A stretch of DNA of 64,000 nt from Perkinsus olseni (lineage: Eukaryota), in assembly GCA_013115125.1 (NCBI GenBank), contig JABANN010000048.1:1-64000 (forward strand), written 5' to 3'. The notes beneath the pieces were generated by a model that searched no databases, was not told where the DNA came from, and saw only the letters and a program-made list of their open reading frames with translations. Shown here piece by piece: positions 47,276 to 61,157 of this stretch (its first letter is position 1; each line of letters opens with the position of its first letter). The position numbers were made by a program, and so were the translations under genes.

Positions 47276-48844
47276 TCAACTCCCAGGATGCAGAATGTCG
47301 GTATAGATGATACCGTAGAGGCAGATAGGCACCAGTGCAAGACCAATCACGAAGATGACAGCAGATAGGTACCAAGTAACCCGCCCCTCCTCCTCAATGT
47401 TCTTTCGGGTTAGCATACAGTAAAGGTAACATGGCATGATGAAACTCGTACAATCACCACCGATAAGGCCAAGCAGCGAGAAGGTAACGCCCAGAGACTT
47501 CACGAAAATGGCCACCACAAGGCTAATTAGCACTATACCTACAGTGAGAATAATCCTCAACTTCAACTCTGCTGCGGGTTTAAGCTCCTTCCCCCGAGTT
47601 AACAGAACTGTGAGGGATCTCCGACAGGGAAAAACTTGCAATGGGAAGGAGCAGACTTCCGATACTGCGAGAGCCAAGTATCCAATCTGTACTGGAATAT
47701 AGTTAACGCTAAGATTTTGTAAACTAAGAGCTTCGACGTTATAGCCAAAAGTTATATAAGGAAATACCATTGCAGGTATGAAAATAACGATGGCTGTGGC
47801 GATAGCGGCAGTGGAAACGATATCCACGCGCAACTGGGTTCGATTCTTAAGATCATCAGTAACAAGGAACGCATTCATATGGCATCCGAAGGACATGATA
47901 ATAATCGGCAAAACACCCATGACTGTCCAGAAGTTAGCAGGCGGCCATACCCTCGTGTTCTCTTCAGCCCTAGAGCAATCACTGTAAACAATTCCTAGGA
48001 TGACAACATAAACCAGACTGAGAAGGCCGACCATGTTAACAATGGCCGTATTGCCTGCTGATCTCCAGAAACATACTGGTGACACGATCGCTACACATAT
48101 CAAAATCAGAATCGCTCGTGTAGCAAAGGAGCCGATGGTATCAGGTATAATCGGAATCCAACGGGCTATAAGGGGTTCGAGCATGTTACCAACAACTTGT
48201 AAATAAACTATACATACTCCAATGCTTGTGATGACTAGAATAGTATCCACTATCCACCTCGAACGTGGAGAACACGCTTGTGAAATAACGAAGAAGCTCA
48301 TTGGCCTCACTTCAAGCTTCAGAGCACACCGATTCAGCAGGTGAAGGGTGAACAAAGATGCCAAACCACTGATGAGTATGGCCAGTAAACCAATAACCCA
48401 GCCGCATCTCGATACAGAGTAGGCAAGACCAAGCATACCAACGCCAATCATAGTCTTCGATAGCACCGTCCAGAGAGAAAGAATAGTCCCACTTGGTTCC
48501 AGAACGGACCCCTCCGCTCCTGTCCTATCTTCGGAAGAATCCAAGATTTTACTCTTGCCGTCAGAAATGGTGGCCGCGGTGACATCCTCAGTGGATAATG
48601 TAGGGTGTTTTATACCACCGATAGTTGCAACCCGGCTGGACCTCCTCGTAAGACCTCCGCTAGTCGCCAGACTAGCTGCAGCTGATGAGTGCCTCGAAGA
48701 TGCAGGCGATCCTGATGTCGCTGATGTGGTTGAAGACGCAGCAGTCGGGAAATCCATAACACTGTCTGCTGCTGTTACGGCACCGAACATGGCCGATCCG
48801 ACGCTCGGATGCCGGGGAGCTGTCTCGTGGGTTGCCCCATTCAT
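47276..48844 (-). CDS. Amino acid/auxin permease (AAAP, Aa_trans; SLC38/Avt-like) transporter; intronless
   Basis: 522-aa ORF with about 11 hydrophobic segments. Family motifs LSKTMIGVGMLGLAY...GWVIG, LPIIIMSFGCHMN and SFPLQVFPCR. Confidence 0.92.
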   Translation of the reverse strand: MNGATHETAPRHPSVGSAMFGAVTAADSVMDFPTAASSTTSATSGSPASSRHSSAAASLATSGGLTRRSSRVATIGGIKHPTLSTEDVTAATISDGKSKILDSSEDRTGAEGSVLEPSGTILSLWTVLSKTMIGVGMLGLAYSVSRCGWVIGLLAILISGLASLFTLHLLNRCALKLEVRPMSFFVISQACSPRSRWIVDTILVITSIGVCIVYLQVVGNMLEPLIARWIPIIPDTIGSFATRAILILICVAIVSPVCFWRSAGNTAIVNMVGLLSLVYVVILGIVYSDCSRAEENTRVWPPANFWTVMGVLPIIIMSFGCHMNAFLVTDDLKNRTQLRVDIVSTAAIATAIVIFIPAMVFPYITFGYNVEALSLQNLSVNYIPVQIGYLALAVSEVCSFPLQVFPCRRSLTVLLTRGKELKPAAELKLRIILTVGIVLISLVVAIFVKSLGVTFSLLGLIGGDCTSFIMPCYLYCMLTRKNIEEEGRVTWYLSAVIFVIGLALVPICLYGIIYTDILHPGS

Positions 48845-48975
48845 TAAGACTCAAGTTCCCAAACGGAGATATAAATCCTTGCAACAACATGAACAATGAA
48901 GTTGAATCCCTTCGAAGCGAGAAAGCTCCCACTCTCGCAACGCAGTATCATGATACCCGTCAGAAATAATTACGC

Positions 48976-51096
48976 TTACTTCGACATCGTAGAATTTGTC
49001 TCAATTGTCCATGGGAACACCGCAAGTTCATCAACCGGGATACACTCATCCTCCACCTGCACATCACTTCAGAGAGCGTAAGCCAACCATCTAATACCTT
49101 ATTAATCCGGCACATTATCCGATAGTAGTTGCCGTACAGAACGCTCACGACTGTGGGCGAAGAAGCCTGTTGCACACCCGAAAAAGCAAGCACGAATTTG
49201 CCTGCAGCAGAGTCCAGATTCGCTGACTGGAGTAGCAGGCTGTCTACCAGGTTCCCAGGTGTCATGTTGGAAGATCCGTGATGTAATAGGATGATAAGAG
49301 TTGAAATCCACTTGAGGAGCAACAACAACCTCTTCAGGGTATATGCCATCCATGTCGGATACACTACCATGGAGAAGGGTCTGAAGCTCCACATGGGATA
49401 GCGGAAGCTACGCTTGGTTCATGAACTCGGAATGATTTTCTTCAGCCAGCTTCTGATAGTTCGAGCCTAGAAACCAATGGCTGAAAGCTGCATTCTCCCA
49501 CCTGACGAAAATAGTCCAAGAAAGAATTGCAACAATTGGACTACCAAGGATGGTGTATCCACGGAGAGTCCGACGGGCCGTAGACCTGCGCGAGCATCTT
49601 TGCCGCCCATTCGGAAGAGCGCACAAAAAACACTCCTGTGTTGAGCATTGCGTGATCCTGGACATGAGCCAGCTACCAGCGATCTACGCTAGCCTGTAAG
49701 TGCACGCCTTACCTCTTGTATGAGCATGTGAAAATCGTCATTCAGGACTCGACGGCCGTCGCTGGAGACCTTCGATCCAAATCTGTGGAGCTCACCTTGA
49801 TCCACATGCCACTCTGTTACACTACTTGTAGAGGATGCTTTCCAATGTCCTAGAAAGGTCCATAAAGTAAGTGTCGCAGTCGAACCACAGAAGCCAGTCA
49901 GCCGTACGCTGTTGCACATGCTTGAGCATGAGAGATATCTGGCACGATATCTCTGGTGAAATGATATACTCGCTAACTCAGGTACTTTGGCCCATGCATG
50001 AGGTCGCGACGGGTCATCTCGCTTGTGTTCAGCCAGTACACGATACCCATGCCGCTTACTATACAGGTCTTTGTTGGACATCGAGTATTTTGGTAAGCTG
50101 AGTAGTGAGCGCTGCAAGATCACCCGCGGTTCGCGGGGCAACCCACACGTGATCTTTCGGATAGTCGCACATCGTTACAATCGCTATGGAGATGTTGTTA
50201 TCTCTGTAGTCTTTCGGTACATCCTGCGACAAAGAATTCGGCAGAAAGCCGACCAGGGAAGAATATGACCTCCCATGATGGCGAGTGACCATGAGGTCCT
50301 GCTTTTAGTATAGCATTCTGAATCGCGGTCTGTTCGTCATTCATCTGCTGAATGGTGATAGGCCAGTCAGATTCATCAACCCAATAGCCATCGTTCTTCC
50401 CCTATGATCCAAAGCTCCATATAAACCATGTGAAGCATATTACTTTCACAACGAATGCATGAGTAAGCCAATTCATTCCAACATGCATCATCCTGAGCGA
50501 TACTTGATGGGCACGCCTATATCCATGCCTGAATAAGCTACTTGCTCCCTCAACGGAGCGAAGACCTGGTACTTATCAGTCGCCTCTAACACCTCCCCAC
50601 CCGCAGCATAAGCGATTGCCAATACACGATACGCAGCTGCTATTCCGATCGAACAGTTGAACGCCTGAACGACCAAAAGATCACCCTGTAGTTTCTTATC
50701 GTGTAGTTTCCGAAATGCGTACCTCAGCAAGAGGATCCAGCGCAGCCGCAAGGCTGTCACGGAGCCCCAGTTTGGCCGCTTCGAAAGCACCCCCTTGAAC
50801 CAACCCGCTATTACTATCAATACTCTCCAGCAGCTGAAGTGGAAATCTTTTCTGCGATATCACTCAGAGACTTCGACGTACGTGGGTCCACTTGGGTATC
50901 AGAGGACATCGGAAGTTCCTGGTTGGCTGATTTCCGAGACCTTCAATATAAACAGTAGTAGCATAGAGCCATATAACCCATGTTGATAAAAATCGACACG
51001 GAAACATCTGCTATAATGAAGACATAACACCCATCTATGTCGGACGCAAGTATTGTATAATTCACTGGGCGAGAAGTACCTCCCAGAACCGTCCAT
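48976..51096 (-). CDS. Glycosyltransferase family 34 (GMA12/MNN10-like); spliced
   Basis: NKDLYSKRHGY...SRPHAWAK, DWLLWFDCDTYFMD (DxD), DHAMLNTGVFF, VAPQVDFNSY...WEPG.FVLAFSG. Short hydrophobic N-terminal segment; start approximate. Confidence 0.85.
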
Positions 51097-51411
51097 TAGT
51101 TGCCAGAAAATGGCGAGTCGGTAGTCTGACGGAGGGGGAACAGCTACTAGTGTGTTGTTTACATTTTGAGAAGCTTCTCTATCGTGGCATCATTCTCTAC
51201 CCCACACGAGTTACCTCTTTGAATCCTGTGCAGCCCACCCGTATCCCTGGGATGCCGCTTAGTCCTCAAGATGGCTCTAGGAGGTTGAACATCGATTCAA
51301 TCGGCGTGCGCAGAGCGGAAGATCTGAAACCGTCAAGAGCTAGAAACCCCGAGCCCGATGGTGCGTCAAACTATCTCGCTTAGTTGTCAATAATTGAAGA
51401 CGGCGTAAATC

Positions 51412-51705
51412 ATGCCGAAGGGTAATTCGTCCCGCTCTGGTGGAAGCAACAATGGTGGAGGTTCCCGCGGTGGAAATGGGGGCTCGGCTACTAGAAGCAG
51501 TGGTGGTTCTTCGAGGGGAGGTGGCAACAATGATTCCTACGGTCCAAGCTGGCTTAACAGCAACGGCACTGTCGATCCCGTTGAGTTCGCCCGCACTGAG
51601 GTCGGCTATGTCGCTCCTGGGCATGACCACTTCGATGAGAAGTTCAACCAAGCCTGTGCCCAATACGGATTCAAGCCTTGGGAGATGTGGGGTGGCGGTC
51701 AGTAG
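51412..51705 (+). CDS. Small protein (97 aa): Gly/Ser-rich N-terminus plus conserved ~50-aa C-terminal domain (paralog 1)
   Basis: Clean ATG-to-stop ORF. C-terminus GPSWLNSNGTVDPVEFARTEVGY...CAQYGFKPWEMW is colinear with the next ORF. Confidence 0.75.
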   Translation: MPKGNSSRSGGSNNGGGSRGGNGGSATRSSGGSSRGGGNNDSYGPSWLNSNGTVDPVEFARTEVGYVAPGHDHFDEKFNQACAQYGFKPWEMWGGGQ

Positions 51706-52108
51706 ATACTCCACCTCTGAGGATCCCGTCACGCTATTATCTCGGTCGGTGAAGATCGGTGAACGAAGAAAATTAGTATAGGTAGAGTCTGATCGCTACA
51801 TCTTTTTCCACATATTTCCTCTATGATTGTTGGATCCTCAAATTCATTAGTCTATCATTTGAGTCTCGATCAATGTGTGTTGCGTTACCACTAGTTTGCG
51901 ACGCCCCTGCGGAGTCCATAGACGTAGCAGTGTGTGGTATTGTGTGGAATAGTTGATGAGCGAGTTAGAGCGACAGCTGCGATGTGTGTTAAGCTGTTGG
52001 TTCATCTAGCGGCTCCTGCATGGTGGACAGGCTTAGTGTTGCGAATCTTGCGGATGATGCGTAGTGAGATAAAGTGCCTCGTACAGCTTCCTTTCTTTAA
52101 TTCTGTCC

Positions 52109-52459
52109 ATGCCTGGGGACAACAGCAGCGCTCAGAAGAGCGACGCCCATCAGAGGAACGGCGAAGCGAGTGGTACGGCTGCATCCGACAATAACACCAG
52201 CGATCACCATGAATGCAGCGTGTGCCATAACAGCGAGCCTATCGACAAGGTGAGCAAGGACGGCATGAGGGTCACCAGGGTTGGCGAAGCTCCGGCCAAT
52301 GAGAATGGTCCTAGCTGGCTCAAAGAGGACGGTACTGTGGACCCCATTGAGTTTGCATTAGCTGAGGTCGGATATCTTGATTTCGAAGATGACAACTTCC
52401 AGGATGACTTTGCCTATCATTGCGCTATGTACGGATTCAAACCGTGGGATATGTGGTAA
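52109..52459 (+). CDS. Small protein (116 aa) with CxxC motif and the same C-terminal domain (paralog 2)
   Basis: Clean ORF. HHECSVCH motif, then GPSWLKEDGTVDPIEFALAEVGY...CAMYGFKPWDMW*. Confidence 0.75.
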   Translation: MPGDNSSAQKSDAHQRNGEASGTAASDNNTSDHHECSVCHNSEPIDKVSKDGMRVTRVGEAPANENGPSWLKEDGTVDPIEFALAEVGYLDFEDDNFQDDFAYHCAMYGFKPWDMW

Positions 52460-52763
52460 TTGTTGCATATCGATATTGATTGATCTGGCTCTGTCGTACT
52501 AGTAAATCGATTTTAATCTTGATCCCTGAAGACTTGTGTTTGTACGGTTATAAACAGCGGACTCGCCCCCGCCAGCGTTGACGCGAGCGGAGGAGCGATT
52601 ACCCGCAGCGCGTGCGAGCTGGCACGTACTTCTACGATTAACTACGCTCAAATGATAGTAGTGGCTGTGTTGTCTTGCCCGCAGGCTTTTCTGTAGTCTT
52701 CCGGTCTCGAGTCGATTGATGTGACCGTAGCCTGGGTCTCACACTGGCGCGCAGTTTTTTACC

Positions 52764-55700
52764 ATGAACCTACGCGCTGCAACTCACAGTTTCAATGACT
52801 GGTTCCGTAACGCGGCAACAATCCATGGAAGTACCACCGCGGCGGTAGAGATGAATGAGATCGGAGAAATAGTGAGAAGAGTACGAACAGGTTTTTTGCG
52901 TTCACAATTTCGGCTGGCTGTTTCCTATCCTAAAGAACTCAGGTAACGTATTCCGATCTCTACAAGACTGCTTGTGAATGCGGCGAAGTGATAAGTCAGA
53001 AGCTGGAATCACAGCGCTCGCCGCGGTGTCGTGTTGATGTTCGAGACGTTCCACGTTGGACGGTGGCTCTCAACATACCAAGAGGAATCGATTGGTATAC
53101 CATGTAAGCCTTTGTATTTCGAAATCGGGCTTGCGAAGGAGCCTCGCATTGTATAGATACTTAGCCTGTTTACTAGCTGGTATACCTACAGTCAGTCTCA
53201 CTAGCGGCGGAAGAGAAGTGCCGGCTGATCAGGAGACTTCCAGGGCGCTACTACTGGCTCAGAGCCTGTTGACGCCGCCGTGTTTACTGATCGGCGGAGA
53301 ATGTGCTCTCGACTGTCCAAGGGTCGACGTTGAAGACATACTTTCATCTGTCGGCCGTGAGACCTCCAATGAGGGATCCCTCCTGCACCGGGCTTTTAGG
53401 GATGGAGAGACCGTCGCGTATCATTTCACAGGAGGTAGGTATACAGCTGTTGGCTATGGTCGGGCTCCGGGACCGTTCTCGGCATCAGTTCGGGCGTAAA
53501 TATCAAAAGAAACTGTGTACAGGTACAACTTCTTCCAGTAAATGTGTTCGTATCACTCTGGGAATGATCATGCACGAACTCGACAAATATGCCGATGTCA
53601 TTCCGAGGGCCTGGAAAGGAGTTGGCCGTGCCGCTGTGATTCATTCAAGTGAGAGTTGAAGCCTCCCTTCTTAGTCGAGCATCACTGGCGCTCTCTGTCA
53701 GGCAGTGTCTACTGGGCGGCTAGCTGCTATGGGCAAGTGGACATATGCTTAGCGTTCTATGGGACCCTAGTAATGCAGACAGCGAAGTTCGCTATACCAC
53801 GAGTGTTTTGCTCAGATCCTCCCTGCGGCCCCGCCTACTGGTAGCAAGCGATGTTCTATGGATGCGACGGAAGTGCCTTATCGTCTCATGAGAGATGCGA
53901 TGACTTCGGGCCGGTTTGATACTGTCATCGCCGGCCTTGTACCCACTCTTATGGACGCGATGCCTTCCCCTGAGACAGACTGGTGGACAAGAGGAGGAAC
54001 CATACGGGAGAAGAAACTCGTAAGTTTAAGCAGCCGGTGACTCCTGTCGAGCGTCAGTCACAAGTTTTCTGTGTAGTTGGTGTTCACCTGGGGCGAAGCT
54101 TGTCCTCAGTCTGTGGTCGACAAATGGGCTAGAGCAACGATAATCGAGTTATTGGTGGCCACCGAGTAGGTCACTGATAGAAACTACTGTGCATCTGTTT
54201 CACACAGGTATTGGCTGTCACTCTACTGCGTGCGATCCACCAGCACCCGGGGAGACCCCGCACCAGTACAGTACAGCATTGTTTCGGGGTGCACCGTTAG
54301 CGCCAAGCGGTTGAGGCCGGGCGGGGATGCGGGCATGATGATCATGAGCGGTAGAATGGTGACCCCTGGGTATGTCACCGGGACCAGTTTACTTGGGGGC
54401 AACGAGATGCCTTCAAAAATCGCCGATGCTACTGAGCACACCGCTACATTCGAGACGGAGGATGTCGTCCGGCTTGTTACGCGTGCAGATAATTCCTATC
54501 GTTTGGTCGAGTGTTTGGGCCGCGAAGGAGATCTCGTCAAAGTAGGTGGAGCGTTTGCAAGAATCCCTGCCCTAGAAGATGCGATAGGGCAGCATTTCGG
54601 GAGTGGGACGAAGGTGATTATTGTGGTGGGGCACGAGGTCCCTGGTGGTGAGATCCATGTGGTAGTTCGAGTGGGGCGGGAATGCCGTCTTGGCGTACCG
54701 GGAGCAATGGCAGCTATCCGGGGTGTTCTGCCGGGACTACCAACGAGGTGTATCCATATCTTCGTTCCCGGTGCGTGGATTCCTACGAATGCGGTGACTG
54801 GGAAGGTCATGAAAGGTGAACTGTTGTCAACTGTTATTCCCCGACCACCTCCTCTGCGATTAGCGGACGATGCCCTCTTGGAGGATGCCCCTTATCGCGA
54901 GCAGTATGAGCTCGGTGGTAGCCTCTTACCCAAATCCGTGGCGAGGTCTAAGAAGGCACTATACGTTGGCGTGCCCATGCATGTTGTCCTAGTGTCAGTG
55001 ATCTCCATACTGGCAAGCCTCTGTTGGAATAACATTGGCCTTGCTCGATTCTCTCTTGGGCTGGTTGCAGCGTTGATGGTTTACTATCCGTTGCTGGATT
55101 ATGTCGCCATCGCTATGCAGTCAGACACGTCGCCAGCTTTCGGATCCTCTATTGATACGAAGGATTGCCTGGAGCGTATGGCACTGAGCTGGGCTGAGGT
55201 TTGTACTTCGGTTCTACTTTGGCTCGAGAGTACGATCCCCTATGGCGAATATCTCTTTAAAACCTCGTTCGCTGCGGTACTTGCTCACATGCGCTGGGGC
55301 ACCCAGATATTCCTACTCATCATCGTTTTGATGAGTTTCACGTGGAGGCATCTCCTTTTCTGGCCCACTATCAGCTCTATCGAGGCAGGGGTCTACCTCT
55401 GTCACAATTGGCGATGGAACAACTGGCGGCCGTATCTTCGCAATCCGCTCCGGCTCGGGTGTTGGTATATTTGTTGTGCTTCATCTTGGCTCGGTAAGCG
55501 ATCTCTACGCTTGTCAAGAATAGATAAGGTCGTCGCCGAAAGCAGACTCGCCAATTATGCTACCGTGCCAAGGCCCGCGGGCCGAGGCAGGCGGCGGGGT
55601 GGTTCCCCCCGCAAGAAGGAACGCTGGTACCAGTGCGATGTCCGGAAGTGCTGCAGAACCAAAGATAATCGAGAATGCTGGTTTCGAGAGAGCCACGGCC

Positions 55701-58240
55701 GATGGGAATGGGTAGAGACAGATAATACACGATGGAAGACAAAGTGCGATGCCAGCATCAAGCTTGAGTAATGACGATTCTCCATTCAGGTGTTCGGAAG
55801 TCGCCGACCCTTCTGCAGCAAAGGAGGGACTGGGAAGGACGGGCATTCACAGTACATGGAAGGGCAGTCGATATCAGTGAGTCACGCCCATCTCTGTGAA
55901 CTGTCTCACGTATCCTCCGCAAGGTTTGTTTGCGAGTCCTGCCTCTGGGACAAGCTTCAGCATGTGGACGTTAAGCCGGCTGGTGGGGACTCTCGACCTC
56001 CAGTGAGACGCCCACCAAGGACCGCGAACCAGTCCACTGAAGCCGTGAATAAGGACACAGCTGCTTCTGATGTTGAAGGTCACATCGTGTCCATGCTTGC
56101 AAGTCTTGGCGGAGAGTGTCCCTATGTCGACGAACAGTCTAGGGGTAGGATGCTCGCTGGATTGTCCTCCCTAAGTGTGGTGCTACTGAGCAGCAAAATC
56201 GCTCAGAAGTGGAATATTAAGGTGAGTCGCCTCTCCGGATGCGCATACTGACGTCTTATCGACACTCCGTTCAGCTGAGTCCCCGAGAAGTAATGGCCTT
56301 CACCACCCTGGGCGACTTAACAAACGAGGTTCGGAAGAGAATTGATGAAGTAGAAGCCGTATCCAATACGTCTAGGGAAACTACGAACTCCTACTCTGGT
56401 CGTCCTCCGGAATATCGCATCAATATGTTCGCAACCCATCTCTGGAAGAGAGCTCCGTGCGATTGGCTCTTCGAATACACTGATTCCGACCACCCCATGA
56501 CGGTCACTGACATCAAAAAAGCTCTGCACATCCTCGTGGATAGGTAAAAGCAATGACTATGAAATTGACTTCTGACGAGTTCTCAGTTCTTCATGCTCAG
56601 GCACACAGTATTCCGCTCCTATCCTCTGGACCCACTAGAACTGCAGGACTGCTGTAAGGAGGTTTTGAGTCTATCATCCGCAGCGGGGATCGAGTCGGCA
56701 TGGGTGCGCAGAGCAGTAGAGGCTTGCTGGCCGAAAGTTGGGCCCCGTAAGGGGCATTCCGGCTCTTCCGTGCCGATCCACACCAAGTGGGTTACACTGG
56801 GGGCAGCAGTTCGCTCAGACACGCCCAATAGGTCTTTCACGAGTTCCAAGTCCGAATCGAGGGCGTCAAAATCCCTCCGAGAATTGGTGGTCCGTCTGAA
56901 GCACACTGAGGCCTTCATGGCTCCTATTGAGTTCCATATCCTCTTGCCGCGAGGTGTGGACAAACGGAAGGAAGGTTAGATCGATGTATACTAGCTCCGC
57001 AAGCAATACAACGGCGTCGTCTTCTCAGCATTTCGGTGGTTTTACGTCTACGTTCGACTCACACATCTGTTCGCGGATGGGTTCTGTGTGGCACCGATGG
57101 CTAAGGAGCTGGACCACGCTTTCAAGCAAGTTACTAGAGGAGAGGTATTGTTCCGGCCAATTTGGTTGTATAGAAGGTCATCACCAGAGTTGTGCAGGTG
57201 TCTCCGGTTGCTGCGTGTGGCTTTCCTACACTACACCATCGCCTCTCAAGTGCCATCCGTGGGAATGAGGCCTTCATTCGTCTCAGACAGGCGATGGAGA
57301 TCCGACGCCCAAGTGCTGATAACAGAACTCGTAAGACGGACAACTCGAGAGCTTATTCGGGGTGTTCCCTAGAACACAGGCACTCTGTGGCTGAGCCGGG
57401 GTACGACTCGCGGCTTGGCCGCTATTGCAAAGGAGCTCCAGGTCCCTACGGAGATCGTCATACTGGCAGTTGTTTTGATAAGTCTTGGTCGGGCATTGGA
57501 GTGGGACTGCATACCATTGAGCCTTATGCGAGCTAATCGGGATGAAGATGCAGTGAGAACACATCAACAGCCTACTTTAAGCCCTTCATTGCATTGTTTA
57601 GGACCAATCACGAATGTTCGGCTTTTTTGCCGAGTATGCAGATCTTGGTTTAATCCCGTGCGATTACAACACCTCACTCTTCGGCGTCATAGCGCAGCTG
57701 CAGGGGCGGATTCAGGAGAACGTTAACAACACAACGGGTCCTCGCCTTTATTCGACATCGTTGGGGGATCGGCCGTGGACCAGAAAGTAACTCTCCTTGC
57801 TTCGAGCGAACATCCCACAGCAGAGGCCATGAGCGGGTTTCACCTTCTTAGATGCTTTCCTATAACAGTGAATCTGATAACCAGTCTGCCACAGATGGAC
57901 GACCTCTGCGTTAGACACGTGTCGTCATACGATCGCATCGAGCGAAATGGCGAAGCTGATGGCCGTGGGATGCGGCCGATCCATCTCTACATCGAGGAAT
58001 CGCGTTATGTGTACGTCTCGGCGCTGATCTCTGCCAGAATGCGTATCTGATGTTCCTGTTACTCGCAGGTCAACCAGCGATACGGACTGGGGCATTCGGA
58101 TGATGCTCGATTGGGAGTGGTTCCCTTGCTCGTGGCTCGTTAAATACGTTGACAGAGATCTACCAGCTGTAATTCAGCAGCTTTTCGAACGGAGGGCACA
58201 TCGCCAATGGGCGAACGAATACTTCCAAACGAGAGAGTGA
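52764..58240 (+). CDS. Single-module NRPS-like enzyme: adenylation - TM/Cys-rich insert - carrier (T) - condensation; spliced
   Basis: A-domain motifs: TYSDL, AYHFTGGTTSSSKCV (split by an intron ending 53522), TWGEAC, SGRMVTPGY, FETEDV, CLGREGDLVKVGG, TGKV. T-like LAGLSSLSVVLLSSKIAQKWNIKLSPREVMAFTTLGDL. C domain: KALHILVDRHTVFRS, RLTHLFADGFC (57061-57081), IAKELQVPTEIVILAVV...ANR. Confidence 0.8.
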
Positions 58241-61157
58241 ATTGAATGAAGATGGTGCTTGTGTGTGGCTTATGTTTCTATGGCCGTTTTCTGACGATTT
58301 CCGTGTATGAGTTTTATTCGGAGTTTGCGATCCCATGCACTCGGTCCTTCGAGGCTTTGATCTTTCTATGAACGGCAGAAGACCGAAGGCGATAGCAGAG
58401 GCAATCACGGCCCTGCCAGTTCCCAGCAACTGGCTCGGAGTGGGAGCCCAGAGGAATCAGGTGTGCGTTTTAATGATGGCGTTGAGCGGAAGCCAACTCA
58501 GATACGGTTTGTAGCCCGGCATCTGCGACGTCATTTCCGCGAAGGCCCCCAGAGCCTGAGCGAAACCTCCCTACGGTGCATTGGTATAGTTCCCACAGCG
58601 CAGGCTATACGGGTGAGTTTGCGATAGCGATTGTCGGGTTGACAGTTCTCTTCTTAGGCTCCCGCCAGAGTCAACAGCAAACTGGTTCGGGTTCCTGCTG
58701 AAGCTGACTATTTGTTAGGAGTGACGCCGATTAGGGACCTCCAATACCATACAAGAGATCAAGTGCAGAAGGTGTGAATCCATGCATTGAATCCAGACAC
58801 TTCACACGGCTGTTATTGTTCCTAGGCTATGGGTCATGGCTCGATTCCAGGAACGAACGATCCATCTCTGAGGATATACCATTTGCTTCCAATAGCTTTC
58901 CCAGCCAGTGAATCAGTAAGCTGCATCGGCGTTATGATGTCCGAATAATGTGGTTTCAAGCTCTGGACCGCACCTGATCCGTTGGTCACCGACGTGATCA
59001 AGGTGTCGCGGTCGACTGAGCCCCATCGACTGGGAACCTTAATCTACAATCGCTGCAGAGACGGCGAAGAGGATATCACAGTGCACGCTAGAGGTGACAT
59101 AGCACTTGCGATGGCCGTCAGGTATGACAACCGCAGCAGGGCATATTGAGATTCTCCGTTCCTGGTTCAGGGGCATCGCGAAAGCGACAGCTAAGTTGGT
59201 ATCCTTTGAAGCCAAACGACTAGTCGCGATTCCAATCTCATTCGAACCGAAATCATTCCAAGAATTACAAATCTCCATCCGATGCGTCGATCTCTCTCCC
59301 TCCGAGACGGGAAAGATACAGTCCCCGAAGTTGTTGGATATCTTGTTCGAAGCTTCCGAAGTGGAGGATGATGTTTCTGACCTTCCCACTCCGAAATCAT
59401 GATGAGTTAGGATTATGTTTCCGATCAATTCGCTGTCGAGGTGTTTTAAATAGATGGTTTCATCACGACTGTGACGCCGGAAACCAGTATTGAACTGATC
59501 CTTATTTATCCACGCAAAGCAGCTGAGAACAGAAGTTAGAAATCGTCAAGCTCATCGAGCATTCCGTAGATCGTATCGGCGCCAGCTGTTCCTGCGATGA
59601 GAAGCTCGTCGCTTTCGGGAGGCCTGACGATACAAAGCACTTGAGGGATGAGTCCGGTCGAAAACGCGTATGATATAAATTTAGATCACTCCAGACGAAA
59701 AAAGCGCATGAGCAATGAAGGCGTCCATCTCACTTTTCATCCTCCACAGAGTGTGCCCTTGGCCAACACTCATCGTAGCACGGAACATCGATCTCTTGGC
59801 TTGCGCACTGACCGTTCAGCAACGACAAGTCGGCGGGATCTTCTACACCGCCATCGGAGTCTCGTACTCGGGAACCTGACCGGACCCGCATGAATCTTAT
59901 CTCAGGCTGCGATCCCACGTTTTGTTTCTGGTTGCTGTGCATCTTTCATCCATTCATCGAAGACTCTCTGTGACACTTCCCTTCCTCCAAGGGTAGTATG
60001 TACCACTTTGACGCCTCTCGCTTCTACTGGGAGAGATATGGTTGAGCCCTCTGCACAAGCGACCAACTGACGGAGACGTGAGGCAGCTCCCGCTCGCTCG
60101 TGGAGTGTCCTCACAGAATCCGGAAGTACTACTGTGTACTGTATAGTAACAGTCTTCGGCACCACCGAGTTGCGGAGCCAGCTTCGATAGGATTCCAGTA
60201 AGTGGCACGAGTCGAGCAGGACGGAGTTGCATAATGGCCACCGCTTGGACATCTTCTGCAGTTGCTTCCAAACGAAAACAGCATGATGGCGACGCCAGTT
60301 CGACAAAGGTGGCTCGTAGGCTAACATGATCTCGTCAAATGCGACCTTCTCGGACTTGCCTGCATTGGGATTCTTTGCGTCTTTATCGAGACAGGCCCGG
60401 TTGAGAATCGCCCTCTCTGAGAGGTTCAGAACCACTCCGGTGATCTTGTCGGCTGCTATGGTCTTATTGAGCTGGAATGACTTGCCGCTCAATGGTGGCC
60501 CACAGGTGCAGTAGACTGTCCTTGGGGAGCCCAACGATGTAGAGCCGACTTCGAATGGAGGAATCGATTTAGCGTCCAGCTTCGAAACTCTACAGTCGCG
60601 AAGGGCGACGAAGGGGACCCAAATGCAGTTTTTCGTGAGCTGCCATGTGGGTATCGGTATCGCCTGTGGGTTGTCCAGACCTTCGAACCAGACCTTAGAG
60701 TCTTTCAAACTGAGCTCAGCACTGATGGTAGTTGGATCATGCGTACGCACGCCACCGGAAGGTTTCGACCAGAGCACAATCAGGGGATCAGTGTTAGACG
60801 ATTTGCCAAGCCGGCCAGTTCGATAGTCGATACACAAGATGCAGGAAGTGGCATTCGTTGTACTATGCGGTACAGCGGCGAAGCCGGCTATGGCACCGCT
60901 CCGTGCCTCGGGGCTGGGATGGACTTCGACGCTGTAACGAAACCTGAAGGAAAGCTCAGACTGATAGTTCTCTCAAGCGGTCGTAATGAATCTTACTTTC
61001 CAGAGCGCTCAGTAGATCGAACACCCCAACTGCCGAGTGCCACTCCCCAGATCGAAAAGCCAAACCCGATCGACTCCCTACACTGCAGTGAATCATTTTC
61101 TATCTCCACCCAAGGATCGCTCCATTCTCTCGAAAAATACGGCCGATCGGACGTCAT
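58160..61157 (-). CDS. hnRNP U-like SPRY plus P-loop (AAA_33-type) protein with unrecognised spliced C-terminal extension
   Basis: FSIWGVALGSWGVRSTERSGKFRYSVEV resembles the hnRNP-U SPRY start. IWVPFVALRDC, Walker A CGPPLSGKS and Walker-B-like VLLDSC follow. The stop at 59902 lies inside a plausible ~43-nt GT-AG intron, so the gene probably continues towards ~58.2 kb (uncertain). Confidence 0.55.

What the first reader, a model, noticed from the sequence alone, without database searches (positions are those of the whole stretch)
51412..52459. Tandem intronless mini-genes sharing an unrecognised ~50-aa domain directly upstream of the NRPS-like gene
Seen: two ORFs with unrelated N-termini (Gly/Ser/Arg low complexity versus acidic with HHECSVCH) share a gap-free C-terminal domain, GPSWLxxxGTVDP(V/I)EFAxxEVGY-x7-F-x3-F-x3-CAxYGFKPW(E/D)MW. 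Many codons differ synonymously, which implies selection on the protein. I do not recognise the family. Speculation: NxxGPSW...GY...CxxYxxxxW(D/E)M loosely echoes MbtH-like A-domain activators (NxEGQYSLWP...PxGW...CLxYIxxxWTDM), but the spacing differs. They could instead be independent adaptors or peptide substrates.
Basis: partly seen in the sequence, partly recalled or inferred. Interest (0 to 1): 0.7.

Follow-up and report, generated by a model that had tools for sequence, protein, structure and literature searches.

The report
Two Perkinsus-only small genes, orphan domain

Summary
ORF1 (51412-51705, 97 aa) and ORF2 (52109-52459, 116 aa) share a gap-free C-terminal block: 30 of 50 residues identical, E 1e-23. 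dN/dS is 0.17, and the N-termini are not alignable.

Named homologues place the window in Perkinsus olseni. RNA-derived contigs from three runs show two separate intronless messages, 51382-51863/7 and 52085-52522. The second carries the 3' end of the Perkinsus spliced leader.

The family appears only in Perkinsus. A profile search of 1.84 billion proteins hit nothing else, and Pfam, NCBIfam, PDB sequences, the ESM Atlas and a metagenome scan gave nothing.

AlphaFold gives a confident small helical fold (pLDDT 85.5) with no structural match (best Z 2.9).

The MbtH reading fails:
- No PF03621 hit, while a YbdZ control scores 4e-21.
- hhalign probability is 0.1%.
- The predicted secondary structure differs.

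The neighbour is an A-T-(C) NRPS-like gene. In P. chesapeaki an ORF1-type gene lies two locus tags from it.

Verdict: a real, undescribed, genus-restricted small-protein family of unknown function.

The parts
51382..51867 (+). Mature mRNA of mini-gene 1, intronless
   Evidence: Contigs of X1, X2 and X6 all begin at 51382, at a genomic AG, and end at 51863, 51814 and 51867. They show 0 other letters and 0 gaps. The X1 contig is followed by sequencing adapter.
51412..51705 (+). ORF1, 97 aa: basic Gly/Ser/Arg/Asn-rich N-terminal tail (43 aa, pI 11.6), the shared domain, then GGGQ
   Evidence: The orthologue P0003 in P. chesapeaki is 79% identical.
51541..51690 (+). Domain copy 1 (ORF1 residues 44-93)
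   Evidence: It shares 42 of 50 residues with P. chesapeaki.
52085..52522 (+). Mature mRNA of mini-gene 2, intronless and spliced-leader trans-spliced at the AG at 52085-52086
   Evidence: Contigs of X1, X2 and X6 all begin at 52085. In X2 and X6, 9 loose letters precede it. Together with the genomic AG these equal the last 11 nt of PmaSL1 (PMC3101222 passages).
52109..52459 (+). ORF2, 116 aa: acidic N-terminal part carrying HECSVCH, then the shared domain ending at the C-terminal Trp
   Evidence: The orthologues P0002 and P0007 in P. marinus are 70% identical.
52307..52456 (+). Domain copy 2 (ORF2 residues 67-116)
   Evidence: In the AlphaFold model of residues 61-116 (pLDDT 85.5) the helices fall at ORF2 residues 79-87, 95-108 and 112-115.
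52764..58240 (+). Neighbouring multi-intron NRPS-like gene. This is context, not shown to belong to the same system.
Evidence: The start is confirmed against P0006. There are 15 listed GT..AG joints of 41-57 nt. Homologues carry AMP-binding (7e-16), PP-binding (2.3e-4) and a sub-threshold Condensation match (3.2e-3).

Best explanation
These are two paralogous protein-coding genes restricted to the genus Perkinsus. They arose by an old tandem duplication that predates the split of P. olseni, P. marinus and P. chesapeaki. Each is matured into its own short message. Each encodes a small soluble protein with no hydrophobic N-terminus. Each protein has a disordered, type-specific N-terminal tail: basic and RGG-like in ORF1, acidic with a conserved HxCxxCH in ORF2. 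The tail is followed by the same compact, acidic, aromatic-rich domain of about 50 residues: a short hairpin, two helices and a short C-terminal helix. The domain is under strong purifying selection.

Shown: gene reality, separate messages, paralogy, selection, genus restriction, no sequence kinship with MbtH, and a predicted fold unlike MbtH's.

Inferred: the domain is a small binding module that docks on a common partner, and the different tails bring different cargo or regulation. The position next to the NRPS-like gene is conserved but is not evidence of a shared function.
For: Coding and selection:
- The pair aligns at E 1e-23, with dN/dS 0.17 and Fisher p 2.8e-5.
- Orthologue domain identity is 42 of 50 (P. 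chesapeaki) and 45 of 50 (P. marinus). The long exon of the neighbouring enzyme is only 54% identical between P. olseni and P. chesapeaki.

Expression and processing:
- Separate colinear contigs appear in 3 of the 3 runs that held the organism. X21 laid 0 reads and is no test.
- A spliced-leader remnant precedes 52085 in 2 runs.
- These runs are RNA-derived: the listed GT..AG joints of the neighbour are present in X1 (15 of 15), X2 (15 of 15) and X6 (8 of 15).
- Contig word depth of genes 1 and 2 against the neighbour's contigs is 1592 and 528 against 70 in X1, 73 and 27 against 3.7-7.8 in X2, and 31 and 8.4 against 2.8-4.2 in X6. This is a rough measure only.

Restriction to Perkinsus:
- A profile search of 1,835,955,588 proteins gave 2 hits, both Perkinsus.
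- Word-indexed searches of 5.8 billion clusters gave only Perkinsus.
- The metagenome scan gave 360 pattern matches and 0 relatives.

Fold:
- The domain-only model has pLDDT 85.5 and pTM 0.69, and all five models score 83.4-85.5. The full-length model shows the same helices.
- The tails score pLDDT below 50.

Composition: tail pI is 11.6 against 5.1, domain pI is 4.1-4.7, and aromatic residues make up 18-22% of the domain.
Against: No experiment or co-fold bears on what the domain binds. The 'binding module' step is inference from size, composition and the two-tail architecture. Three facts leave a functional link with the NRPS-like gene open:
- The three genes are packed tightly on the same strand. 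A neighbour transcript contig starts 11 nt after the longest gene-2 contig ends.
- In P. chesapeaki the ORF1-type gene is two locus tags from the NRPS-like gene, on a contig of the same length.
- Three Trp residues are invariant, the same number that PMC8788816 (section 18) reports as conserved in MbtH-like proteins.

Contig depth is a poor measure of expression (tool note). Only four to five sequences from three species support the alignment and the model.
Confidence: 0.6

Rival explanations
1. The domain is a non-homologous functional analogue of MbtH-like proteins. It binds the adenylation domain of the neighbouring membrane NRPS-like enzyme and acts as its chaperone or activator.
For: The genes are immediately adjacent on the same strand. 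Linkage is kept in P. chesapeaki, where FOL47_008165 and FOL47_008167 share a contig length. It is also kept in a second P. olseni assembly, where P0001 and P0005 share the contig length 99101. The proteins are small, with three invariant Trp. Both the domain and the homologues of the enzyme's long exon were found only in Perkinsus.
Against: There is no sequence or profile similarity to MbtH. The predicted secondary structure lacks the three-strand sheet (PMC8788816 section 18). The mini-gene contigs are 2-23 times deeper than the enzyme's, which does not suggest a 1:1 partner, though depth is a weak measure. The domain is far better conserved than the enzyme (42 of 50 identical against 54%). 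Synteny among congeners is expected by default. According to PMC8788816, MbtH-like proteins appear absent from fungal NRPS systems.
Confidence: 0.12
2. The small proteins are ribosomally made substrates, scaffolds or acyl acceptors. The terminal condensation domain of the A-T-C enzyme would transfer its activated acid onto them, for example onto the conserved Lys, Cys or Ser, or onto the C-terminus.
For: The genes are adjacent, and contig depth is higher than that of the enzyme, as is usual for precursor genes (recalled knowledge, not from a call). Ser69, Cys105 and Lys111 are invariant, and ORF2-type proteins end exactly at the conserved Trp.
Against: The conservation pattern is the reverse of a leader/core precursor: the tail varies and the C-terminal part is a folded domain. 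ORF1-type proteins carry 4 further residues after the Trp. No protease, transporter or tailoring gene was identified beside them. The only named neighbour is an amino-acid transporter family gene.
Confidence: 0.08
3. The two ORFs are exons of one gene that encodes a two-domain protein, as in the public model FOZ60_011880 (246 aa).
For: P0009 joins both ORFs through a translated spacer.
Against: ORF1 ends at a stop codon in this window. Contigs of three runs end at 51814-51867 and restart at 52085. A spliced-leader remnant lies at 52085, inside the supposed joining exon. P. marinus and P. chesapeaki models are single-domain proteins of 113-115 aa. However, 52 contig pieces and 6 joints were not listed, so a rare joined form is not excluded.
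Confidence: 0.04
4. The ORFs are chance reading frames in non-coding transcripts.
For: None beyond their small size and the low-complexity tail of ORF1.
Against: Pair E-value 1e-23, dN/dS 0.17, orthologues in two other species, and a confident fold.
Confidence: 0.01

Closest known systems
MbtH-like proteins (Pfam PF03621), small partners of bacterial NRPS adenylation domains
   Same: Both are small proteins encoded next to an adenylating NRPS-type gene. The number of conserved Trp matches: three invariant here, three reported in PMC8788816 section 18.
   Different: No HMM or profile similarity. The MbtH invariants seen in alignment A6 (N, Q, LWP, P-x-GW, W, P) are absent. The predicted fold is helical with one beta bridge, not a three-strand sheet plus helix. 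The host is a eukaryote. The proteins carry long disordered tails. Binding was not tested.
Taxonomically restricted (orphan) small protein genes in tandem arrays of spliced-leader trans-splicing alveolates
   Same: The family is restricted to one genus. The genes form an intronless tandem pair on one strand, each matured by spliced-leader addition.
   Different: Unlike many orphans, these have a confidently predicted folded domain and strong purifying selection across three species.
Ribosomal precursor or scaffold peptides that work with peptide-ligating enzymes (RiPP precursors, pearlin-type scaffolds; recalled knowledge, no call)
   Same: Small gene products beside a carrier-protein-dependent ligating enzyme. 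ORF2-type proteins end at a conserved Trp.
   Different: The conserved part is a folded 50-residue domain, not a leader. The variable part is N-terminal. No cognate modifying enzymes were recognised.

Membership tests
MbtH-like protein (PF03621) | Match to the Pfam MbtH model | tested here: not met
   0 of 4 family members match any Pfam family at E<=10. The positive control, E. coli YbdZ, matches PF03621 at 4e-21, 74.6 bits.
MbtH-like protein (PF03621) | Profile-profile similarity to aligned MbtH proteins | tested here: not met
   hhalign of A5 against A6 (7 MbtH proteins) gives probability 0.12% over 4 columns. A1 against A6 gives 0.10% over 1 column.
MbtH-like protein (PF03621) | Signature residues (invariant N, Q, L-W-P, P-x-G-W, W, P in alignment A6) | tested here: not met
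   A6's invariant columns have no counterpart in register with the invariant columns of A1 or A5. Only a Cys-centred stretch of 4 columns aligned.
MbtH-like protein (PF03621) | [quoted passage not shown] | tested here: not met
   Two AlphaFold models (pLDDT 80-85 on the domain, and 85.5) show helices at 19-27, 35-48 and 52-55 and no strand of 3 or more residues. This rests on a prediction from 4-5 sequences.
MbtH-like protein (PF03621) | Structural match to solved MbtH-like proteins | tested here: inconclusive
   Foldseek against PDB: 0 matches at E<=0.001. VIA-align against 48,161 chains: best Z 2.6 and 2.9, and no listed row is an MbtH protein.
MbtH-like protein (PF03621) | Binds the adenylation domain of its NRPS | not testable with these tools
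   The complex-prediction job (P. chesapeaki A domain plus domain alignment) met a full queue, and the tool was then declared unavailable.
MbtH-like protein (PF03621) | Encoded beside an NRPS gene | tested here: met
   The ORF2 stop at 52459 lies 305 nt before the start (52764) of a gene whose homologues carry AMP-binding and PP-binding domains. The same neighbourhood is inferred in P. chesapeaki from locus tags.
RiPP-type precursor peptide | Conserved N-terminal leader with the modified core at the C-terminus | tested here: not met
   The N-terminal parts are unrelated between the paralogues (10 of 41 identical). The conserved part is a folded C-terminal domain.

The most novel reading that the evidence does not exclude
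The shared domain is a eukaryotic partner of the membrane-embedded A-(TM)-T-C enzyme next door, unrelated in sequence to MbtH. It would act either as an activator or chaperone of the enzyme's adenylation domain, or as the protein acceptor or scaffold onto which the terminal condensation domain loads its product. That would give perkinsids a small-protein-dependent NRPS-like system of a type not described in any eukaryote.
Probability: 0.15. Interest if true: 0.75.

Novelty: new member of a known kind. Interest (0 to 1): 0.33.

Why it matters
Perkinsus olseni and P. marinus are major parasites of clams and oysters. They branch near the base of the dinoflagellate/apicomplexan lineage. A strongly conserved, apparently well-expressed, genus-specific folded domain could serve as a lineage marker. 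It is also a candidate for a parasite-specific function.

If the domain works with the unusual membrane NRPS-like enzyme beside it, it would be the first small accessory or acceptor protein of such an enzyme in a eukaryote. As it stands, the result is more modest:
- It defines an undescribed domain family.
- It corrects a fused public gene model.
- It removes the MbtH reading.

Tried and rejected
- **MbtH kinship:** rejected by HMM, profile-profile comparison and predicted secondary structure.
- **Fold searches:** both models gave nothing above Z 2.9 or E 3.9. EF-hand proteins appear only among tied noise rows (Z 2.0-2.3). No EF-hand, villin-headpiece, GYF, WW or PAM2 Pfam model matched at E<=10. 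Those resemblances came from my reading of the motif and were dropped.
- **Other libraries and scans:** PDB sequence profile search, best E 1.2. NCBIfam and PHROGs, only E 0.02 and 0.097. ESM Atlas, no usable hit for either query. Metagenome scan, 0 relatives.
- **Similarity to the NRPS-like protein itself** (docking-domain idea): best BLASTP E 0.71, HMM E 0.42.
- **Window fragments of the neighbour:** no Pfam hit at E<=10 except a chance HepT-like match at E 0.1, and no PDB hit. Its NRPS-like nature had to be shown through full-length homologues.
- **Whole-genome search:** no genome is held for this window.
- **Earlier-findings look-ups:** the look-ups by sequence and by relatives found nothing.
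- **Complex prediction:** queue full, then declared unavailable; nothing was folded.
- **Raw-read run X21:** laid 0 reads, so it is no test.
- **Literature:** 0 papers for any of 13 accession or locus-tag terms. 'Perkinsus' with 'nonribosomal peptide' returned 3 papers, none on this locus judging by the titles and abstract openings in the listing. Supplementary tables were not searched, so the proteins may still be listed in an omics supplement.

Full report
**What is there.** BLASTP aligns ORF1 residues 44-93 with ORF2 residues 67-116 without gaps. Thirty of 50 residues are identical, and E is 1e-23 for the pair. Outside this block the proteins are unrelated. Ten of 41 aligned N-terminal residues are identical. 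The N-terminal DNA aligns no better than shuffles, scoring -19.5 against a mean of -16.8, sd 4.4. In an alignment of the two messages, DNA similarity is confined to the domain-coding part. No third copy lies in the 64-kb window.

**Selection.** Within the 50 shared codons, 13 of the 30 identical residues use different codons. Differences by codon position are 15/8/26. Nei-Gojobori counts give pS 0.68 and pN 0.25, so dN/dS is 0.17 with dS saturated. A Fisher test on synonymous against non-synonymous changes gives p = 2.8e-5.

**Organism and relatives.** The only relatives in a word-indexed search of 5.8 billion protein clusters are from Perkinsus:
- P. marinus PMAR020720 is 70% identical to ORF2.
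- P. chesapeaki FOL47_008167 is 79% identical to ORF1.

Homologues of the neighbouring gene are named P. olseni at 97-99% identity, so the window is P. olseni. A profile of the four sequences was run against 1,835,955,588 representative proteins of all lengths. It hit 2 proteins at E<=0.001, both from this family. A pattern scan of JGI metagenomes gave 360 pattern matches, none confirmed.

Cluster look-up added three more entries:
- a second near-identical P. marinus copy, PMAR011344;
- a Logan-derived model with an extended start;
- a P. olseni model of 246 aa, FOZ60_011880, that fuses both ORFs.

There are two types. The ORF1 type is seen in P. olseni and P. chesapeaki. The ORF2 type is seen in P. 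olseni and P. marinus. Domain identity is 42 of 50 and 45 of 50 within types and 30-33 of 50 between types. The duplication therefore predates these species. Between P. olseni and P. chesapeaki the domain (42 of 50) is much better kept than the long exon of the neighbouring enzyme (54%).

**Transcripts.** Contigs of three runs were laid on 50900-58900. A fourth run, of raw reads, laid nothing and is no test. The three runs hold spliced forms of the neighbouring gene. Fifteen GT..AG joints of 41-57 nt are listed, and they are present in X1 (15), X2 (15) and X6 (8). The runs are therefore RNA-derived.

- **Gene 1** is covered by a colinear contig from 51382 to 51863 in X1 (followed by adapter), to 51814 in X2 and to 51867 in X6.
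- **Gene 2** is covered from 52085 to 52522 in X1, to 52499 in X2 and to 52496 in X6.

All of these contigs show 0 other letters and 0 gaps, so both genes are intronless. All six contigs start at a genomic AG preceded by a pyrimidine-rich stretch. In X2 and X6, nine loose letters precede 52085. Together with that AG they spell the last 11 nt of the 22-nt P. marinus spliced leader PmaSL1, as printed in PMC3101222 (passages read).

Gene 2 is therefore trans-spliced 22 nt before its start codon. That junction lies inside the 'exon' which the fused public model uses to join the ORFs, so the fusion is probably an annotation artefact. Because 52 contig pieces and 6 joints were not listed, a rare joined form is not excluded.

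Contig word depths for gene 1, gene 2 and the neighbour's contigs are as follows.

| Run | Gene 1 | Gene 2 | Neighbour |
|---|---|---|---|
| X1 | 1592 | 528 | 70 |
| X2 | 73 | 27 | 3.7-7.8 |
| X6 | 31 | 8.4 | 2.8-4.2 |

The tool warns that this is a poor measure of expression. I take it only as a hint that the small messages are abundant.

**The proteins.** Neither protein has a hydrophobic N-terminus. The ORF1 tail (43 aa) is Gly/Ser/Asn/Arg-rich and basic (pI 11.6). The ORF2 N-terminal part (66 aa) is acidic (pI 5.1) and keeps HECSVCH in both species. The shared domain is acidic (pI 4.1-4.7) and 18-22% aromatic.

AlphaFold on the full ORF2 alignment leaves residues 1-64 mostly below pLDDT 50 and gives the domain 80-85. 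Folding residues 61-116 alone gives mean pLDDT 85.5 and pTM 0.69, and all five models score 83.4-85.5. The model has a single beta bridge (residues 11/17), helices at 19-27 and 35-48, and a short helix at 52-55.

Neither Foldseek against 350,542 PDB chains nor VIA-align against 48,161 representatives gives a meaningful match. Foldseek found 0 matches at E<=0.001. VIA-align's best Z was 2.6 and 2.9. For a 56-residue model this does not prove a new fold.

**No known family.** Four libraries and two other searches gave nothing:
- Pfam: 0 of 4 members at E<=10.
- NCBIfam: best E 0.02.
- PHROGs: best E 0.097.
- PDB sequences: best E 1.2.
- ESM Atlas: no usable hit.
- Papers: 0 for 13 accession or locus-tag terms.

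**The MbtH idea.** For a control I fetched E. coli YbdZ from NC_000913.3. It hits PF03621 at 4e-21. I also fetched six annotated MbtH family proteins from plasmids and aligned all seven (A6). hhalign of the Perkinsus alignments against A6 gives probabilities of 0.12% and 0.10% over 4 and 1 columns. The A6 invariants (N, Q, LWP, P-x-GW, W, P) have no counterpart in register.

PMC8788816 (section 18, read) describes MbtH-like proteins as follows:
- about 70 aa long;
- a three-strand antiparallel sheet plus a C-terminal helix;
- three conserved Trp that contact the A domain;
- apparently absent from fungal NRPS systems.

The Perkinsus domain also has three invariant Trp, but its predicted secondary structure differs. 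Membership is therefore rejected. An analogous function is not excluded, because the co-fold that would test binding could not be run. Complex prediction met a full queue and was then declared unavailable.

**The neighbour and the linkage.** Window fragments of the downstream gene match no Pfam model. Its full-length homologues do:
- AMP-binding, 7e-16, in P. chesapeaki FOL47_008165 (1692 aa).
- PP-binding, 2.3e-4.
- A sub-threshold Condensation match, 3.2e-3, in P. olseni FOL46_007011.

The neighbour's start codon at 52764 aligns with residue 1 of the P. chesapeaki protein. I confirmed the domain content and the introns only in part.

The three genes lie head to tail on one strand. A neighbour transcript contig starts at 52533, 11 nt after the longest gene-2 contig ends. 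In P. chesapeaki the ORF1-type gene (FOL47_008167, KAF4675160.1) and the enzyme (FOL47_008165, KAF4675158.1) are two tags apart, on a contig of the same length. I could not see what FOL47_008166 is, nor the neighbours in P. marinus, because no eukaryotic genome is held.

Conserved order among congeners is expected whether or not the functions are linked. No similarity exists between the small proteins and the enzyme itself.

**Reading.** The well-supported points are these:
- The genes are real and separately matured.
- They are paralogues restricted to one genus.
- They share an undescribed, selected and probably folded small domain, with divergent disordered tails.

The mechanism is inferred, not shown. 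I read the domain as a docking module for a common partner and the tails as type-specific additions. I put 0.6 on this package. The remaining weight goes to an MbtH-like accessory role by analogy (0.12), a role as acceptor or scaffold of the A-T-C enzyme (0.08), a single fused gene (0.04) and chance ORFs (0.01). What is left stays unassigned.

**Novelty and interest.** The family is undescribed as a family; its members are 'hypothetical protein' entries. As a kind of thing it is ordinary: protist genomes hold many lineage-restricted small genes. Interest is therefore modest, at 0.33. It would rise sharply if a physical or genetic link with the membrane NRPS-like enzyme were shown.

Noticed in passing
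window 51412-52459 (public model P0009): A public P. olseni gene model (FOZ60_011880, 246 aa) fuses ORF1 and ORF2 through the spacer. The RNA contigs and a spliced-leader junction at 52085 argue for two separate genes, so ORF1 has no stand-alone entry for P. olseni in the protein collections searched.
   Followed up: partly
window 52205-52225 (ORF2 residues 33-39): HECSVCH (an HxCxxCH / CxxCH pattern) is kept in the P. olseni and P. marinus ORF2-type proteins, inside an otherwise low-confidence region. It could be a metal or haem site or chance. No family match.
   Followed up: no
window 52522-52533: A transcript contig of the NRPS-like gene starts 11 nt after the longest contig of mini-gene 2 ends. 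Mini-gene 1 starts 29 nt after an upstream 2348-nt contig ends at 51353. The dense same-strand packing is compatible with polycistronic transcription resolved by spliced-leader addition.
   Followed up: no
window 47276-48850, minus strand: A single 524-residue open frame matches the Pfam amino-acid transporter family Aa_trans (7.7e-54). It lies about 2.5 kb upstream of the mini-genes on the opposite strand.
   Followed up: no
window 58109-58900: Another spliced transcript with higher contig depth (115-209 per bin, contig 283.5 in X1). It has three short GT..AG introns (58456/58498, 58611/58657, 58769/58824) and follows the NRPS-like gene. Not identified.
   Followed up: no
P0003 residues 1-23; P0008 residues 1-54: The P. 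chesapeaki model and a Logan-derived P. marinus-like model carry N-terminal extensions ahead of the conserved start (MPKGNSS / MSSDGG). These are probably over-extended start calls.
   Followed up: no
window 52764-58240: Window fragments of the NRPS-like gene, including its 511-residue exon, match no Pfam model at E<=10 and no PDB sequence. Only the full-length homologues reveal the A and T domains, so the enzyme is very divergent.
   Followed up: partly
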